In this document: piece after piece, positions 58,058 to 64,000 of the stretch | Layout: each line of letters opens with the position of its first letter | Position numbering within the stretch: position 1 is the first letter of the stretch | Assembly (NCBI GenBank): GCA_019323015.1 | Contig: JAHWHY010000008.1 | Location: 225 to 64,224, forward strand | DNA from: Candidatus Woesearchaeota archaeon | Lineage (GTDB): Archaea > Nanobdellota > Nanobdellia > Woesearchaeales > ARS49 | Direction of reading: 5' to 3' | Length of the DNA: 64,000 bases | Made by a program: the position numbers and the translations under genes | Notes under the pieces: model-generated | What the model saw: the letters and a program-made list of their open reading frames with translations, nothing else | The model's database searches: none | What the model was told of the DNA's origin: nothing

Positions 58058-60226
58058 TTACAGTTTTGGGAAATCCACCTTAAAACCAATTCCATCTATT
58101 CGTTTGTCACATTCGCTGTCAATAACTGAAATTTTTCCAGTATAAAGAGAAAGCATTTCTGATGAAATAAACATGCCCAACCCTCTTCCATGAGTTTTGG
58201 CCGTGACAAAAGGCAGCTTAAACAAATTTGATTTAATATTGGATGCAAGTGTTGGCCCATTATTCGCTATTAACAATGAATTTTTCTCTTCATCAAAGAA
58301 TATAAGGAGATTCCTGTCATCTTTTTGTGATTTGGTAGATAACCAGTACACCGCATTGGATATGATATTATTAAGTATCTGAGCAACAGAATAATCAGGC
58401 ATTCTTGTAGTAATACCTTTACCTTCTATCTGTATTTGAATGTTTGCTTGTTTTATTTCATCCTGATATATCATCAGAATAAGATTTAAAATTTTCATAA
58501 CAGACGTCTTTCCTTCCTGAGGAGATCCTTTGATATATCGCATTGCACTCATTAATCTTACTTCGTTCTTTAGAGCTTTAGTGAATAATTCTATTTTAGT
58601 TATATCATCATCAGGCCCGTATTTTTTTCTGAGGTTTTGTGCTGCTTCAGACACTGAGAAAACCATTCTTTCAAATTCATGTGAAAATCTTTCTGAAGCA
58701 AGACCCATTCCAACAAGATGCAGGAAAACTTCCCGATTTTCGCCTTCGCTTTCAATATATTCTTTGAGAGAACTACATACCGCAGTGTATTTGTCTTCAA
58801 AATCATCCAACTTTTCTTTTGGAATAACAACCATTTCCTCTTTTGGTTTCTGTTCAGTAATTTCTTTTTTACTTTCTTCCTCTTCTTTTTGTCTGAATTC
58901 CTCATATTTCTTTGAAGTCTCCTGCAAATCCTTGATTTCCTTTTTTAAGTCTTCAATTGTTGACTCCATTTTATCTTTTTTTGTTTGTGTTTTGGTGATT
59001 TTTTTTCTTGAAGACATACATTCCTGTTCGAGTTTTGAAACACAACCCAAAACAAGAGATTTCATGTCAAAAAATGCTTGATTTTCCTGAAGCCCTTCTC
59101 TGCTTGTCTTATCTATAAGGCAAGAGTTGTCCTGTTGATTTAATTCAACAAAACCTATTATTTGCCGGTTACCTAATCTTGATGCGGGCACATTAATTCT
59201 CCGTTGGTCAAGCTGTAACCAATCATCTCCCGGATCTCCATACGGCAGAATTCTAAATCCGTCACGAAATATGCTAACGCCAGATAATTCCTGAAGATGG
59301 TCTCTTGTTATTCCAAAATTTTTAAGGTTCTGGGTTTCTCTTAACCAAGCAAACAATCTGATTTTAAATGGGCCACACATAGGATTCCCACTTGATTTTT
59401 CCTTGTCTCTGACTTCAGCCCATAAATCACAGGATTTTTTTATTTTTGTTTTTCCATTACTTCCTTTTCGTTCTGTATAAGAATAATTAACAAATCCTTT
59501 TTCATCAACAGAGCATTCTATCAAAAATTGAAATCTGTCCAGAATATCTGATCTATTAAGATTCTCTAACTCCGGAGCATCAGGACAAATAAAAGTCAAA
59601 TCAAACTCTGAATCAACAATCCCTGGCGAACGTAATCTTATCAGACTGGCCTGAAGACGGGCAAGATCTTTCTTGGTCCAGTTTTCTCTGGCCTTTTTTA
59701 CTCTTATAAAAGTGCCGTGTGGTTCATCCTTAAATTGTTTGACTGGTCTTTTTTCATAAGGTATACTTATCTCATTAATAAATTTTGAATTATCCTCAAA
59801 ATCCTTCCAGTTAATATTAAGAACAATTTCATAATCCTTCCCTTTCGGTCTTGTAATAAGTTCCAGCTCTTTACCAAGTTTCTGGACTGCAAACCTGCCA
59901 ACTCCCTTTTCTCCCAAAGGTATTCTTCCCTTTGCCGATTTTTGCATTCTTTTTTTGGAATCGTCTTTTGCACCATGCGCCGGCTCAAACCATCTGCCTT
60001 CAATAATATCAGAATCCATCCCAGCACCGTTATCTTTTATCACCACTTGTGTTGTTTCAGGCGATCGTGTACCTTCAATCAACAGTTCAACTTTTTCAGC
60101 ATCCGCGTCATAGGCATTCTTTATCAATTCCAGAACACCAACAGTATTATCTCTGATAAGATGCTCTCCTAAGATTTTAATTAACCGTGCTCTTGGCTTA
60201 AAAATAACTTTATGTTCTTCTTTCAT
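58058..60226 (-). CDS. double GHKL ATPase: N-terminal MORC/HATPase_c_3-like domain, coiled coil, C-terminal histidine-kinase-like DHp + HATPase_c
   Basis: The N-terminal half has VLELIKNAYDADA (N box), VIKDNGAGMD (G1) and GEKGVGRFAVQKLG (G2). A Lys/Glu-rich coiled coil follows. The C-terminal half has RFSHEFERM (H-box-like), ILNNIISNAVYW (N box), IANNGPT and THGRGLGMFISSEM (G2). Confidence 0.7.
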   Translation of the reverse strand: MKEEHKVIFKPRARLIKILGEHLIRDNTVGVLELIKNAYDADAEKVELLIEGTRSPETTQVVIKDNGAGMDSDIIEGRWFEPAHGAKDDSKKRMQKSAKGRIPLGEKGVGRFAVQKLGKELELITRPKGKDYEIVLNINWKDFEDNSKFINEISIPYEKRPVKQFKDEPHGTFIRVKKARENWTKKDLARLQASLIRLRSPGIVDSEFDLTFICPDAPELENLNRSDILDRFQFLIECSVDEKGFVNYSYTERKGSNGKTKIKKSCDLWAEVRDKEKSSGNPMCGPFKIRLFAWLRETQNLKNFGITRDHLQELSGVSIFRDGFRILPYGDPGDDWLQLDQRRINVPASRLGNRQIIGFVELNQQDNSCLIDKTSREGLQENQAFFDMKSLVLGCVSKLEQECMSSRKKITKTQTKKDKMESTIEDLKKEIKDLQETSKKYEEFRQKEEEESKKEITEQKPKEEMVVIPKEKLDDFEDKYTAVCSSLKEYIESEGENREVFLHLVGMGLASERFSHEFERMVFSVSEAAQNLRKKYGPDDDITKIELFTKALKNEVRLMSAMRYIKGSPQEGKTSVMKILNLILMIYQDEIKQANIQIQIEGKGITTRMPDYSVAQILNNIISNAVYWLSTKSQKDDRNLLIFFDEEKNSLLIANNGPTLASNIKSNLFKLPFVTAKTHGRGLGMFISSEMLSLYTGKISVIDSECDKRIDGIGFKVDFPKL

Positions 60227-63022: not shown

Positions 63023-64000
63023 CTAGCGGTTTAAAGAAGAAAAAACGGCTTCAGCAACAGCTTTTGCCAACAAAGGCGGAACGGCATTACCTACTTGCCA
63101 GAATTTCTTGCTTGGCGGACCTTCAAAAATTATGTAGTCTGGAAAAGATTGCAATCGGGCAGCTTCTCTCGGGGTAATAGTTCTCGCTTGTTTGGGGTGA
63201 ATAAATCTATTGCCGTCTTTTTGAAGATGTGCAAACAGTGTAGTGCATGGTTCATTCCATTTCTGTTTTCTGTATTTGTCTTTAAAGGCATTCATTTCAT
63301 ATTTTATTTTTATTTTTAAACTCTCAGATCCCTTTTCTATTACATCTTTTGCTGTCCAGCCTTGTTTCATTCCTTTAAACAAGTCTATGTCACTTGATTG
63401 TTGACTTCTTGCAACATGGTGGTCAATATATTTATATCCATTTGGTCTTATTTGTTGATGAAACATCTTTCCGGATCTGGACAAGGTGCGAAGAAAGTTT
63501 CCGTAAGATTTACTGTTTACATTTATTCTATCTTTGCCATTATTCCTGTGCTTATTAACCCTGTCGATAGTTTTTTTTTGGTTTAGCGGTATGTCTGTAT
63601 ACGTTATTTTTGCCTGTACTTTTGGAAGATCTCCTATTGCTTCGTGAATTGTTACTTGTTTTAATAATCTTTTAGCTGTTTTTTCAGATGAATGTGTTTG
63701 TTTAGGCGCAGACATACAGGAATCAGTGAATCTACGATAAAAACCAATAATAAAAACTCTTTCTCTTTTTTGCGGAACACCATAATTCGCTGCATTCAGG
63801 ACCATATATTTTTGGTTGTTTTTTTCAATGTTAAAATTGTAACCTGCTTTTTCAAAATCTTTGATTATTCTATCAATTATTCTCTTTCCTTTTAAATCTT
63901 TTTTTGAAAGAATACCTTTGACATTTTCAATAACAATAATTTTAGGTTTTAGTTCTTTTACAATAGCATAAAATTCTTTGTAAAGAAGATCTCTTTTATC
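63023..64000 (-). CDS. DNA (cytosine-5)-methyltransferase, N-terminus outside the window
   Basis: The frame stays open to nt 64000. It reads DKRDLLYKEFYAIVKELKPKIIVIENVKGILS (ENV motif), NAANYGVPQKRERVFIIGF (QxRxR), TITPREAARLQSFPD and QVGNAVPPLLAKAV (motifs IX-X). The PCQ motif would lie beyond the window. Confidence 0.85.
   Translation of the reverse strand, partial: DKRDLLYKEFYAIVKELKPKIIVIENVKGILSKKDLKGKRIIDRIIKDFEKAGYNFNIEKNNQKYMVLNAANYGVPQKRERVFIIGFYRRFTDSCMSAPKQTHSSEKTAKRLLKQVTIHEAIGDLPKVQAKITYTDIPLNQKKTIDRVNKHRNNGKDRINVNSKSYGNFLRTLSRSGKMFHQQIRPNGYKYIDHHVARSQQSSDIDLFKGMKQGWTAKDVIEKGSESLKIKIKYEMNAFKDKYRKQKWNEPCTTLFAHLQKDGNRFIHPKQARTITPREAARLQSFPDYIIFEGPPSKKFWQVGNAVPPLLAKAVAEAVFSSLNR

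What the first reader, a model, noticed from the sequence alone, without database searches (positions are those of the whole stretch)
58058..64000. Dcm methyltransferase, NurA-like nuclease, HerA-like ATPase and a double GHKL ATPase in one co-directional block: candidate undescribed methylation-linked defence system
Seen in the sequence: four minus-strand genes run in series.
- A C5-cytosine methyltransferase (ENV, QxRxR, GNAVPP motifs).
- After a 57-nt gap, a NurA-like ORF (VGVDGT motif).
- 1 nt later, a HerA-like ATPase (GSGKT, IIEEAH).
- With a 4-nt ATGA overlap, a 722-aa protein with two Bergerat-fold ATPase modules joined by a coiled coil. The N-terminal module is MORC/HATPase_c_3-like. 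The C-terminal module is histidine-kinase-like with an SHEF H-box.
Established knowledge: HerA-NurA is the archaeal DNA-end-resection pair and is usually linked to mre11-rad50. HerA also partners Sir2 or DUF4297 effectors in bacterial anti-phage systems. MORC-like GHKL ATPases have been noted by comparative genomics inside restriction-modification loci.
Inference: no mre11/rad50 and no classical restriction endonuclease is visible here. The block sits in an AT-rich accessory region next to other defence-like genes. The nuclease/translocase pair could therefore be the effector, Dcm the self-marker and the GHKL protein the sensor or regulator. I do not know this four-gene combination as a named system.
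Basis: partly seen in the sequence, partly recalled or inferred. Interest (0 to 1): 0.85.

Follow-up and report, generated by a model that had tools for sequence, protein, structure and literature searches.

The report
Methylase-linked NurA–HerA DNA-cutting module
A mobile gene cassette in an uncultured archaeon pairs a DNA cytosine methylase with a NurA-like nuclease, a HerA-type DNA motor and a MORC-plus-histidine-kinase ATPase. The set is kept together across archaea and bacteria and is most likely an untested, restriction-modification-like defence system, only part of which has been described before.

Summary
In detail: four co-directional minus-strand genes with the stated motifs, gaps and ATGA overlap. 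The public contig (Ca. Woesearchaeota MAG, identical DNA) shows a full 443-aa Dcm preceded by an overlapping Vsr, then T4SS-like genes. There is no mre11/rad50 and no classical REase.

The 361-aa protein matches no sequence model, but a confident AlphaFold model has NurA as its ten best PDB matches.

Across 36 non-redundant loci from three archaeal and at least seven bacterial lineages:
- HerA is adjacent in 32/32.
- The GHKL-kinase protein is present in 26/26.
- Dcm is present in 30/32.
- A receiver-domain partner follows in 11/19, all bacterial; it is absent here.

Distant family members keep MTase + NurA-like + HerA but use N4/N6 methylases and may lack the GHKL protein.

Best reading: an R-M-like system. 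The MTase marks self, NurA-like/HerA degrades DNA, and the MORC-kinase protein senses or licenses.

It is not wholly undescribed. The GHKL-kinase/receiver/C5-MTase/Vsr association was published in 2021 and MORC-type ATPases in R-M loci in 2008. A NurA–HerA–methylase operon on Thermus ICETh1 mediates DNA donation, which is a live rival. No function has been tested. Verdict: new variant of a known kind.

The parts
63023..64000 (-). C5-cytosine DNA methyltransferase (Dcm). The window holds the C-terminal 325 codons plus the stop. The gene continues 354 nt past the window end, for 443 aa in all.
   Evidence: Pfam DNA_methylase 7e-43, TIGR00675 dcm 4e-40. The full protein on identical contig L002 has FAGAGG20, PCQ96, ENV143, QKRER195 and GNAV422. 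A Dcm-family gene lies upstream of the NurA-like gene in 30/32 testable non-redundant loci. An overlapping Vsr (PF03852, 147 aa) lies just outside the window.
61880..62965 (-). NurA-like nuclease, 361 aa, from a protein family with no sequence model. Predicted RNase H-like fold. D83 lies in the GVDGT motif (codon 62717-62719).
   Evidence: No Pfam, NCBIfam, PADLOC or PDB sequence or profile hit. AlphaFold2 pLDDT 87.5, pTM 0.84. Foldseek top 10 are all NurA: 2ygk at 5.8e-6, TM 0.46/0.51; 9x1m HerA-NurA complex; 3tai/3tal/3taz. D83, E156 and D306 are invariant and E180, D320 and D323 nearly so across the superfamily down to 25% identity. Only 247 clusters (50% identity) among 1.84 billion proteins.
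60223..61869 (-). HerA/FtsK-family hexameric ATPase. 548 aa from ATG 61869, or 551 aa from the alternative GTG at 61878.
   Evidence: Pfam DUF87 3e-22 and HerA_C 1e-11, both above cutoff. PADLOC HerA 8e-28 and mad8 7e-21. NCBIfam CedD, HerA and HerA_antiphage hits are all far below their cutoffs. Best PDB relatives are the NurA-partnered archaeal HerAs, 9x1l at 1.4e-16 and 4d2i at 1.7e-16. Walker A GTVGSGKT, Walker B IVIIEEAH. Directly follows the NurA-like gene in 32/32 loci.
58058..60226 (-). Double-GHKL protein, 722 aa: MORC-like ATPase, long helical linker, then a histidine-kinase core. Start codon overlaps the HerA stop (ATGA).
   Evidence: Pfam HATPase_c_3 5e-19 and HATPase_c 6e-17. NCBIfam BbrUII/HgiDII restriction-enzyme N-terminus 2e-20, below cutoff. 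AlphaFold2 pLDDT 79.4. Foldseek gives two hit classes, MORC2/MORC3/SMCHD1/MutL and HK853/YF1/ZraS/CpxA. Present in 26/26 testable loci.
59087..60226 (-). N-terminal module of the GHKL protein (aa 1-380): Bergerat ATPase plus a transducer-like domain, MORC/MutL-like.
   Evidence: Invariant E33-x3-N37-x2-D40, D65xGxG and G105EKGVGRF, plus a conserved block at 316-378. About 430-500 aligned columns to MORC2 (9cdj, 2.9e-12), MORC3 (6o1e, TM 0.53) and MutL LN40 (1nhh, TM 0.64).
58547..59080 (-). Long helices (aa 383-560): coiled-coil linker and a DHp-like helix carrying the H-box. H516 is at codon 58679-58681.
   Evidence: Helices 383-411, 414-452, 470-536 and 540-560 in the model. E512-R-F-x-H516-E-F is invariant in archaeal and bacterial members. 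Homologs P0200 and P0205 pass Pfam HEF_HK (PF19191); the window protein scores only E = 0.14.
58058..58519 (-). C-terminal catalytic (CA) domain of the histidine-kinase module (aa 570-722, plus stop).
   Evidence: Pfam HATPase_c at 614-705. N box Q616/N620/N624 and G2 box G680-R-G-L-G are invariant. Structural matches to HK DHp+CA cores, TM about 0.55.

Best explanation
This is a horizontally mobile, ATP-dependent, restriction-modification-like module.

Shown:
- The locus encodes an intact C5-MTase, with a Vsr just upstream that would repair the T:G mismatches 5mC deamination causes.
- It encodes a NurA-fold protein with an invariant acidic constellation, a HerA-family ATPase with intact Walker motifs, and a soluble protein joining an intact MORC-type GHKL ATPase to an intact histidine-kinase core.
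- The last three genes are inseparable and co-evolve. A methyltransferase is almost always adjacent, and its chemical class changes between clades.

Inferred:
- The MTase marks host DNA.
- The NurA-like protein docks on a HerA hexamer, as in archaeal HerA-NurA, and forms a processive translocase-nuclease that destroys unmarked incoming DNA.
- The GHKL-kinase protein, a likely dimer like other GHKL ATPases, binds DNA through its ATP-driven MORC-like clamp, reads the modification state or another invader cue, and licenses the effector.
- In bacterial relatives the signal would pass from H516 to the invariant Asp of an adjacent receiver-domain protein. In this archaeal, receiver-less subtype it would act directly on HerA/NurA-like or through an unlinked partner.

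Open questions: what makes the first DNA end or nick, and which component recognises sequence.
For: - Domain and motif integrity.
- NurA fold. Superfamily-wide invariant D83/E156/D306.
- The HerA is closest to NurA-partnered archaeal HerAs.
- MORC-like and HK-like halves confirmed by structure search.
- Linkage in 36 non-redundant loci: HerA 32/32, GHKL-HK 26/26, Dcm 30/32, Vsr 10/25, receiver 11/19.
- Spread over Woesearchaeota, Methanosarcinales, Thaumarchaeota, Chloroflexi-type lineages, Acidobacteria, Bacteroidetes, Ignavibacteria, Desulfobacterales, Gammaproteobacteria and Moduliflexus, and Thermincola. That distribution indicates horizontal transfer, as is typical of R-M systems.
- MTase class swap with a retained NurA-like + HerA pair. 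N6_N4_Mtase sits directly upstream of the NurA-like gene in L053-L056 and three small ORFs away in L057. This is the classical signature of a restriction module.
- Co-evolution: Mantel r = 0.85-0.86 among NurA-like, HerA and GHKL-HK, against 0.61-0.66 with Dcm. The effector pair evolves slowly while GHKL-HK and Dcm evolve fast.
- The GHKL-HK family is a reusable partner of other restriction-type modules, including DISARM-like helicase + DUF1998 + PLD sets, with C5-MTases. The literature links it to R-M loci (PMC8011034; PMC2292703).
- The receiver partner has the full D/D/T/K signature.
- AT-rich accessory setting next to T4SS-like, DUF4238 and Schlafen-like genes.
Against: - No experiment exists for any member, and none for any HEF_HK-type system.
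- The NurA link rests on fold only (TM about 0.5, 11-13% identity). Mapping of the invariant residues onto the NurA active site was not checked in 3D.
- No sequence-specific endonuclease or DNA-recognition domain was identified, so target discrimination is unexplained.
- HerA-NurA normally needs DNA ends.
- The window's subtype lacks the receiver partner although H516 is invariant, so the output of the kinase half here is unknown.
- The only experimentally studied NurA-like/HerA-like/MTase operon (ICETh1) promotes DNA donation rather than defence.
- The system is absent from sequenced plasmids, phages and viral contigs. It is rare, which limits the comparative evidence.
Confidence: 0.55

Rival explanations
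1. DNA-donation or DNA-mobilisation module of a conjugative or integrative element, as in Thermus ICETh1. Here NurA-like + HerA-like (TdtA-like) would process and pump host or element DNA out of the cell for transfer. The MTase and GHKL protein would control where and when DNA is cut.
For: - The ICETh1 operon is Tth111II, NurA-like, TdtA (HerA/FtsK) and an N4/N6 methylase. NurA-like and TdtA are required for transjugation (PMC5365140; PMC7767461).
- Distant tier loci have the same N6_N4_Mtase + NurA-like + HerA make-up. L055 also has an adjacent MmeI/Eco57I-like type IIG enzyme.
- The window's cassette lies directly beside a VirB4/TraG-PrgI fusion, a TrbC-like pilin and a NikA-like gene.
- L020, a GHKL-HK locus, also neighbours T4SS genes.
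Against: - None of the other family loci has homologs of the window's T4SS-like genes within 8-10 kb.
- No sequence link to the Thermus proteins could be shown. The family does not match Pfam NurA, although the paper places TTC1878 in the NurA family.
- In ICETh1 the methylase has only minor effects on transfer. Here the MTase is almost invariably retained, together with Vsr or a glycosylase-like fusion, which suggests genome-wide self-marking.
- R-M cargo next to conjugation genes is common.
Confidence: 0.15
2. A mismatch- or deamination-repair accessory for the Dcm. Vsr or a glycosylase nicks at T:G, the MutL-like GHKL protein coordinates, and NurA-like/HerA excises the nicked strand. This would be a self-contained repair kit travelling with a mutagenic methylase.
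For: - Vsr overlaps the Dcm gene here.
- Some relatives fuse an HhH-GPD-like region to the Dcm.
- The N-terminal module resembles MutL LN40.
- The paper read (Iyer 2008, PMC2292703) groups MutL's roles in mismatch repair and very-short-patch repair with the MORC/paraMORC ATPases of R-M loci.
Against: - Vsr is present in only 10/25 loci, whereas the other four genes are near-universal.
- Distant relatives use N4/N6 MTases, which create no T:G deamination problem.
- A processive hexameric translocase-nuclease is excessive for short-patch excision.
- The histidine-kinase/receiver layer has no precedent in repair.
Confidence: 0.08
3. An abortive-infection type system. The kinase half senses infection and unleashes HerA/NurA-like on all cellular DNA, with the MTase only loosely associated. 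Alternatively the GHKL-kinase (with receiver) is merely a transcriptional regulator of an ordinary R-M.
For: - Two-component signalling layer with an invariant His, and an invariant Asp in the partner.
- Sir2-HerA and DUF4297-HerA precedents for HerA-scaffolded effectors (papers listed).
- The GHKL-HK is dispensable in distant clades.
Against: - The MTase is retained in 30/32 loci and switches class with the clade. That argues for modification-dependent discrimination.
- The receiver-like protein has no recognisable DNA-binding output domain.
- The GHKL-HK co-evolves as tightly with NurA-like and HerA as they do with each other. That suggests physical partnership rather than transcriptional control.
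Confidence: 0.1
4. Housekeeping archaeal HerA-NurA double-strand-break resection genes that happen to lie next to a methylase.
For: NurA fold and HerA family. Best PDB HerA relatives are the archaeal repair enzymes.
Against: - No mre11/rad50 within 10 kb.
- The proteins fail the NCBIfam HerA equivalogs and Pfam NurA.
- Patchy distribution across distant archaea and bacteria, always with MTase and GHKL-HK.
- AT-rich accessory region.
Confidence: 0.02

Closest known systems
HEF_HK / Response_reg_2 'two-component-like' genes of paraMORC type associated with R-M systems (Bellieny-Rabelo, Pretorius & Moleleki 2021, PMC8011034)
   Same: Same protein architecture for the 722-aa gene: HATPase_c_3, then a DHp helix with an H-E-F motif, then HATPase_c, soluble. 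Same upstream C5-MTase and frequent Vsr. In bacterial relatives of this locus the same receiver-like partner follows directly.
   Different: - The main text of that paper never mentions HerA, DUF87 or NurA. It reports HNH_2, EcoRII-C, MvaI_BcnI, ResIII and similar as the neighbouring nucleases.
- It covers bacteria only.
- The window's archaeal subtype lacks the receiver partner, and its protein scores below the HEF_HK Pfam threshold (E = 0.14).
- No function was tested there either.
Prokaryotic MORC/paraMORC ATPases in R-M operons (Iyer, Abhiman & Aravind 2008, PMC2292703)
   Same: A GHKL + transducer ATPase encoded with Dcm, Vsr, a motor ATPase and a nuclease. Proposed there to couple recognition and cleavage by manipulating DNA. 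The N-terminal module matches MORC2/3 and MutL structurally.
   Different: The motors described there are superfamily II helicases, and the nucleases are REase-fold, HNH or PLD. There is no HerA/FtsK-type pump, no NurA-fold nuclease and no fused histidine-kinase half.
Archaeal HerA-NurA end-resection complex (S. solfataricus, P. furiosus, T. kodakarensis; PDB 2ygk, 3tal, 4d2i, 9x1l-9x1p)
   Same: Adjacent nurA-like and herA genes. NurA fold. The HerA is closest to these HerAs in the PDB. The likely working principle is a nuclease mounted on a hexameric DNA translocase.
   Different: No mre11/rad50. The nuclease is not detectable by the NurA sequence model. The genes are mobile, patchy and MTase-linked, with an extra GHKL-kinase subunit.
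ICETh1 tdtA operon of Thermus thermophilus (Blesa et al. 2017, PMC5365140)
   Same: One operon on a mobile element encoding a NurA-family nuclease, a HerA/FtsK-family ATPase and a DNA methylase. It is the only experimentally studied case of this trio.
   Different: It has a type IIG restriction enzyme and an N4/N6 methylase, and no GHKL-kinase. Its demonstrated role is DNA donation (transjugation). Sequence relationship to the window's proteins could not be established.
HerA-scaffolded anti-phage systems (Sir2-HerA, DUF4297-HerA) and DndFGH-type HerA/FtsK 'capture' systems
   Same: A HerA-family ATPase paired with an effector in defence loci. The window's HerA hits PADLOC HerA and DndH models and anti-phage HerA structures.
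   Different: The effector is NurA-fold, not Sir2 or Cap4-like. The system is methylation-linked. NCBIfam anti-phage HerA equivalogs are not met (54 and 47 bits against cutoffs of 800 and 850).
MADS (methylation-associated defence system; bioRxiv 10.1101/2023.03.30.534895)
   Same: [quoted passage not shown]
   Different: MADS has eight genes with an N6-MTase, and MAD6-8 are mandatory. Neither the NurA-like nor the GHKL protein hits any mad model.

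Membership tests
NurA nuclease family (Pfam PF09376; archaeal NurA) | Match to the NurA sequence model | tested here: not met
   No Pfam hit even at E <= 10 for the window protein. None at E <= 0.1 for 10 distant family members. No NurA hit in PDB by sequence or by family profile.
NurA nuclease family (Pfam PF09376; archaeal NurA) | NurA-type RNase H-like fold | tested here: met
   Model pLDDT 87.5. Foldseek top 10 are all NurA, E 5.8e-6 to 5.8e-4, probability 1.00, TM 0.32-0.51. 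PIWI, EndoV and RNase H follow.
NurA nuclease family (Pfam PF09376; archaeal NurA) | Catalytic acidic/His residues in the NurA active-site positions | tested here: inconclusive
   D83, E156 and D306 are invariant, and E180, D320 and D323 near-invariant, across the superfamily. D83 lies in the first long beta strand (79-91) of the model. Residue-level superposition on NurA was not possible with these tools.
NurA nuclease family (Pfam PF09376; archaeal NurA) | Operonic pairing with herA | tested here: met
   32/32 non-redundant loci, and also in the distant tier.
Archaeal housekeeping resection operon (herA-mre11-rad50-nurA) | Linkage to mre11 and rad50 | tested here: not met
   No such genes within 10 kb on either side on the public contig, nor as a conserved family in 16 loci.
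HerA/FtsK ATPases | DUF87/HerA central domain above the curated cutoff, with Walker A and B | tested here: met
   PF01935 at 80.3 bits against a cutoff of 23.2. PF05872 at 44.5 against 22. GTVGSGKT and IVIIEEAH.
HerA/FtsK ATPases | Membership of a named equivalog (repair HerA, CedD, anti-phage HerA) | tested here: not met
   All NCBIfam hits are far below cutoff: CedD 102 against 600, HerA 85 against 800, HerA_antiphage 54 against 800.
HEF_HK / Response_reg_2 paraMORC two-component-like system (PMC8011034) | HATPase_c_3 N-terminus plus a histidine-kinase C-terminus in one soluble protein | tested here: met
HEF_HK / Response_reg_2 paraMORC two-component-like system (PMC8011034) | HEF_HK (PF19191) DHp domain with a conserved His | tested here: inconclusive
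   The window protein scores E = 0.14, 13.1 bits against a cutoff of 24.1. Homologs P0200 and P0205 pass. The H516-E-F motif is invariant in the family.
HEF_HK / Response_reg_2 paraMORC two-component-like system (PMC8011034) | Adjacent Response_reg_2 receiver-like gene (91.6% linkage in the paper) | tested here: not met
   Absent from the window and from all archaeal relatives. Present in 11/19 testable loci, all bacterial.
HEF_HK / Response_reg_2 paraMORC two-component-like system (PMC8011034) | Neighbouring C5-MTase, with or without Vsr | tested here: met
Classical Type II restriction-modification | A methyltransferase plus a recognisable restriction endonuclease | tested here: not met
   The MTase is present. 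No REase-family hit in the cassette apart from the GHKL N-terminus resembling that of BbrUII/HgiDII enzymes, below cutoff (73 bits against 550).
MADS | MAD6, MAD7 and MAD8 present, with an N6-MTase | tested here: not met
   Only mad8 is hit. The MTase is C5.
DISARM class 2 | DrmA helicase, DrmB (DUF1998) and DrmC (PLD) with DrmMII | tested here: not met
   Only the MTase hits DrmMII models. DrmABC-like genes occur beside other GHKL-HK homologs but not here.
ICETh1-type DNA-donation module | Orthology of the nuclease and ATPase to TTC1878 and TdtA, and a role in DNA transfer | not testable with these tools
A homolog search from the most ICETh1-like member returned no named Thermus protein.

The most novel reading that the evidence does not exclude
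The cassette defines a distinct class of ATP-dependent restriction-modification system. The restriction enzyme would be a NurA-fold nuclease riding a HerA hexamer, a processive DNA shredder rather than a site-specific cutter. Self/non-self licensing would come from a MORC-type DNA clamp wired to a histidine-kinase phosphorelay. That would be the first case of two-component signalling directly gating a restriction nuclease, and it would be shared by archaea and bacteria.
Probability: 0.3. Interest if true: 0.8.

Novelty: new variant of a known kind. Interest (0 to 1): 0.62.

Why it matters
If the reading is right, it has four consequences.
- It adds a NurA/HerA resection-type machine to the known restriction effectors.
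- It gives an enzymatic context for the prokaryotic MORC-like ATPases that are thought to be ancestral to eukaryotic MORCs.
- It offers a tractable case of a soluble histidine kinase acting inside a DNA-surveillance complex rather than in gene regulation.
- It flags a ~360-aa protein family with no model (247 clusters) that annotation pipelines call 'hypothetical', so current defence-finders would miss the system.

The parallel with Thermus ICETh1 raises another question: are 'DNA donation' modules and R-M-like defence modules two faces of the same machinery?

Tried and rejected
- Sequence searches of the 361-aa protein against Pfam (also at E <= 10), NCBIfam, PADLOC and PDB found nothing. So did a 32-sequence family profile against PDB, whose only 'hit' was a designed PPR repeat protein, which is spurious.
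- Ten distant superfamily members also have no Pfam family.
- MADS was considered because of the mad8 hit and rejected.
- The Dnd/HerA-capture paper and the BREX-diversity paper were checked. Neither mentions a GHKL or NurA partner. The eLife 2020 conflict-systems paper was not relevant.
- The Nitrosocaldus paper concerned only housekeeping HerA-NurA.
- The Iyer 2004 FtsK-HerA paper is not held. The supplements of PMC8011034 are not held, so DUF87 in its neighbour tables could not be checked.
- tblastn of the NurA-like protein against PLSDB plasmids and INPHARED phages, and a scan of IMG/VR viral contigs, gave no match.
- I looked for an integrase at the tRNA-Thr (47306-47399) to delimit an island and found none.
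- The first co-evolution run picked the wrong HerA paralog in L008. It was discarded and redone.
- The last homolog search, meant to link the family to Thermus TTC1878, found only 15 unnamed relatives.
- The short GHKL in L056 shares only the Bergerat core with the window's protein (E = 2e-4). It is therefore not evidence that the MORC half is ancestral to the core.
- The C-terminal ~250-aa domain of the receiver partner matched nothing in Pfam or PDB.

Full report
**What is in the window**

- The 722-aa protein (58058-60226) carries Pfam HATPase_c_3 at residues 30-172 and HATPase_c at 614-705.
- The next gene (60223-61878) carries DUF87 and HerA_C above their curated cutoffs.
- The ORF running off the window end is a C5-cytosine methyltransferase.

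The 57-nt gap, the 1-nt gap and the ATGA start/stop overlap are all correct. GC falls from about 0.38-0.42 to 0.30-0.37 over the last 12 kb.

The 361-aa ORF (61880-62965) has no hit in Pfam (even at E <= 10), NCBIfam, PADLOC or the PDB by sequence. The NurA call was therefore the weakest part of the observation.

**Beyond the window end**

The exact protein is found on four public contigs, among them JAHWHU010000003.1 of a Candidatus Woesearchaeota MAG. That DNA is identical to the window over the whole 12.1-kb overlap.
- The Dcm is 443 aa, with FAGAGG, PCQ, ENV, QKRER and GNAV.
- A 147-aa Vsr gene overlaps its start by 53 nt.
- Further upstream lie a VirB4/TraG-PrgI fusion ATPase, a TrbC-like pilin, a NikA-like gene and a Schlafen/AlbA_2 protein.
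- There is no mre11, rad50 or classical restriction endonuclease.

HerA most likely starts at ATG 61869, behind a GGTGA site (548 aa).

**The 361-aa protein**

Homologs number 216 or more. All are about 360 aa and all are 'hypothetical'. They come from archaea and bacteria alike.
- A 32-sequence alignment shows invariant D83 (GVDGT), E156/E158, E180, H292, D306 and D320.
- A family profile still finds no NurA in the PDB by sequence.
- An AlphaFold2 model is confident (pLDDT 87.5, pTM 0.84). Its ten best Foldseek matches in the PDB are all NurA: S. solfataricus 2ygk, the T. kodakarensis HerA-NurA complex and P. furiosus 3tai/3tal/3taz. E values go down to 5.8e-6, probability is 1.00 and TM is 0.46-0.51. 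Argonaute PIWI, EndoV and RNase H follow.
- A search of 1.84 billion representative proteins finds only 247 clusters at E <= 0.001. Ten distant members have no Pfam family either.
- Across the whole superfamily, down to 25% identity, D83, E156 and D306 remain invariant.

So this is a NurA-fold nuclease family with no sequence model. 'NurA-like' is justified. 'Member of Pfam NurA' is not.

**HerA and the GHKL protein**

HerA has intact Walker A and B motifs. It falls far below every NCBIfam equivalog cutoff. Its closest solved relatives are the two archaeal HerAs that work with NurA.

In the GHKL protein, alignment of 11 and then 30 family members shows several invariant blocks:
- the N-terminal Bergerat motifs
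- a block at residues 316-378
- the H-box E-R-F-x-H516-E-F
- the N and G2 boxes of the C-terminal kinase domain

The AlphaFold2 model (pLDDT 79.4) matches two classes of structure.
- MORC2, MORC3, SMCHD1, Hsp90 and MutL-LN40 align over about 430-500 columns.
- Histidine-kinase DHp+CA cores (YF1, HK853, ZraS, CpxA) align over about 250 columns.

**Is the linkage conserved?**

I fetched 15 loci from GTDB species genomes and 28 from metagenomes with the NurA-like profile. I annotated them with HMMs built from the family. After collapsing to 36 clusters at 95% identity, the results were:

| Partner of the NurA-like gene | Present / testable |
|---|---|
| HerA, directly downstream | 32/32 |
| GHKL-kinase gene | 26/26 |
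| Dcm-family gene upstream | 30/32 |
| Vsr | 10/25 |

- The GHKL-kinase gene directly follows HerA on the same strand in all but two loci. In L012 it lies upstream and inverted. In L030 it follows HerA on the opposite strand.
- Hosts include Woesearchaeota, Methanosarcinales, Thaumarchaeota, Anaerolineae/Caldilineae, Acidobacteria, Bacteroidetes, Ignavibacteria, Desulfobacterales, a gammaproteobacterium and Moduliflexus, and Thermincola.
- No other gene family is conserved in the archaeal loci.

**A fifth gene in the bacterial versions**

In 11 of 19 testable loci a protein of about 385 aa follows the GHKL-kinase gene. L012 adds one more case, where the pair is co-inverted.
- Its N-terminus is a receiver domain with invariant D11, D55 (VILDW), T85 and K112.
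- It gives weak Pfam Response_reg_2 and Response_reg hits and PDB receiver-domain hits.
- Its C-terminal ~250 residues match nothing.
- All of these loci are bacterial, and their NurA-like proteins are at most 50% identical to the window's.
- The window and all archaeal loci belong to a receiver-less subtype, yet they keep H516.

**The invariant core**

More distant NurA-like proteins sit in N6_N4_Mtase, NurA-like, HerA arrangements.
- L053/L054 and L055 have no GHKL-kinase gene in the cassette.
- L056 has a short, only distantly related GHKL protein after HerA.
- L057 lies beside a type I CRISPR-Cas locus.

So the constant is methyltransferase + NurA-like + HerA. The methyltransferase changes chemical class between clades, and the GHKL-kinase is a clade-specific addition.

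Conversely, other GHKL-kinase homologs sit beside DISARM-like helicase + DUF1998 + PLD sets and C5-MTases, without HerA or NurA.

Distance matrices over 12 complete loci give these results (one search was discarded because of a paralog error):

| Comparison | Mantel r |
|---|---|
| Among NurA-like, HerA and GHKL-kinase | 0.85-0.86 |
| Each of those against Dcm | 0.61-0.66 |

| Protein | Mean pairwise distance |
|---|---|
| NurA-like | 0.49 |
| HerA | 0.47 |
| GHKL-kinase | 0.60 |
| Dcm | 0.63 |

This pattern fits a conserved effector pair, a faster-diverging sensor and marker, and occasional exchange of the MTase.

**What was already known**

- Iyer et al. 2008 placed prokaryotic MORC/paraMORC ATPases in R-M operons with Dcm, Vsr, SF2 helicases and nucleases. 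HerA is not mentioned.
- Bellieny-Rabelo et al. [quoted passage not shown] They showed 91.6% adjacency in 644 bacterial regions and noted the HATPase_c_3 N-terminus. They also reported enrichment of C5-MTases, Vsr and nucleases such as HNH_2. HerA, DUF87 and NurA do not occur in that text, and archaea were not analysed.
- MADS shares only a HerA-like component.
- The Dnd and BREX comparative papers describe HerA/FtsK 'capture' systems without GHKL or NurA partners.
- The closest experimental analogue is the ICETh1 operon of Thermus thermophilus: Tth111II, a NurA-like nuclease, TdtA (HerA/FtsK-like) and an N4/N6 methylase. There the nuclease and ATPase are required for DNA donation in transjugation.
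- I could not link the Thermus proteins to this family by sequence.
- The window's T4SS-like neighbours do not recur at other family loci.

**Interpretation**

The best-supported reading (about 0.55) is an R-M-like defence module. Near-obligate methyltransferase linkage, MTase class swapping, cross-domain horizontal spread and Vsr-type damage control all point that way.
- NurA-like/HerA would be a processive nuclease-translocase effector, by analogy with archaeal HerA-NurA.
- The MORC-kinase protein would be the DNA-sensing or licensing subunit. In bacteria it would signal to a receiver-domain partner.

The steps from domain content to 'defence', 'effector' and 'sensor' are inference. Nothing in this family or in the HEF_HK family has been tested.

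Open problems:
- How the first DNA end arises.
- Which component recognises sequence.
- What the kinase half does where no receiver is encoded.

The main rival (about 0.15) is an ICETh1-like DNA-mobilisation function. A deamination-repair accessory, and an abortive-infection or purely regulatory role, are less likely. A housekeeping resection operon is effectively excluded.

**Verdict**

The cassette is a new variant of a known kind, namely MORC/HEF-kinase-associated, methylation-linked restriction-type systems. What is new:
- a NurA-fold/HerA effector pair from a protein family with no existing model
- archaeal, receiver-less members
- a broader MTase + NurA-like + HerA core

It is rare and untested, so the interest is moderate to high rather than exceptional.

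Noticed in passing
window 31552-33827 (+): An MTS/Eco57I-type N6 methyltransferase (383 aa) is followed, with a 1-nt overlap, by a 374-aa ORF with no Pfam family. This may be a second, unrelated R-M pair in the chromosomal part of the window.
   Followed up: no
window 54572-57719 (-): Three co-directional genes lie immediately downstream of the GHKL gene. They are a 392-aa ORF with an HExxH motif (CHELIH) and no family, a 321-aa protein with weak winged-helix hits, and a DUF4238 protein that also hits PADLOC 'DUF4238-Pers' (9e-9). They are not conserved at any related locus, so they look like separate accessory or defence-like cargo.
   Followed up: partly
L010 7774-9984; L012 3895-5946; also L034, L036, L037: In several bacterial relatives that lack Vsr, the Dcm is about 650-750 aa. 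In L010 the N-terminal extension resembles HhH-GPD/Ogg glycosylases (PF00730 1.7e-4, below cutoff). It may be a T:G mismatch glycosylase fused to the methylase in place of Vsr. The extension was scanned only in L010 and L012, and L012 gave no glycosylase hit.
   Followed up: partly
L011 8306-9998; L013 8282-10004; L014 8053-9707; L041: The C5-MTase is split into two consecutive ORFs (about 340 + 235 aa) in one bacterial clade. This is either a naturally split methylase or a recurrent frameshift.
   Followed up: no
L020-L024: Other members of the GHKL-kinase family sit beside DISARM-like gene sets (a ~1100-aa SF2 helicase, MZB/DUF1998 and a PLD nuclease) together with C5-MTases, HhH-GPD and UvrD genes. 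L022 has two GHKL-kinase paralogs separated by a 419-aa gene. L020 is next to T4SS genes.
   Followed up: partly
L055 2143-9382; L057 648-12215: The distant MTase + NurA-like + HerA cassettes lie next to other defence genes. L055 has an MmeI/Eco57I-like type IIG enzyme, which makes it resemble Thermus ICETh1. L057 has a type I CRISPR-Cas locus with Cas6 and Cas3.
   Followed up: partly
L016 11332-12714; L048 4088-5723 and 1770-3009: HerA, and in L048 also Dcm and the receiver gene, are broken into two ORFs. These are possibly decaying copies or assembly frameshifts.
   Followed up: no
window 47306-47399 (-) and 47483-48400 (-): A tRNA-Thr(CGT) lies next to a 305-aa protein with a MazE/AbrB-type N-terminal domain. 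No integrase was found there, so the boundary of the AT-rich accessory region (from about 52 kb) is undefined.
   Followed up: partly
L008 5563-7365 (+): A second, unrelated HerA-like ORF (600 aa) lies 4 kb upstream of the cassette in the Thaumarchaeota locus. It caused an error in my first co-evolution run.
   Followed up: no
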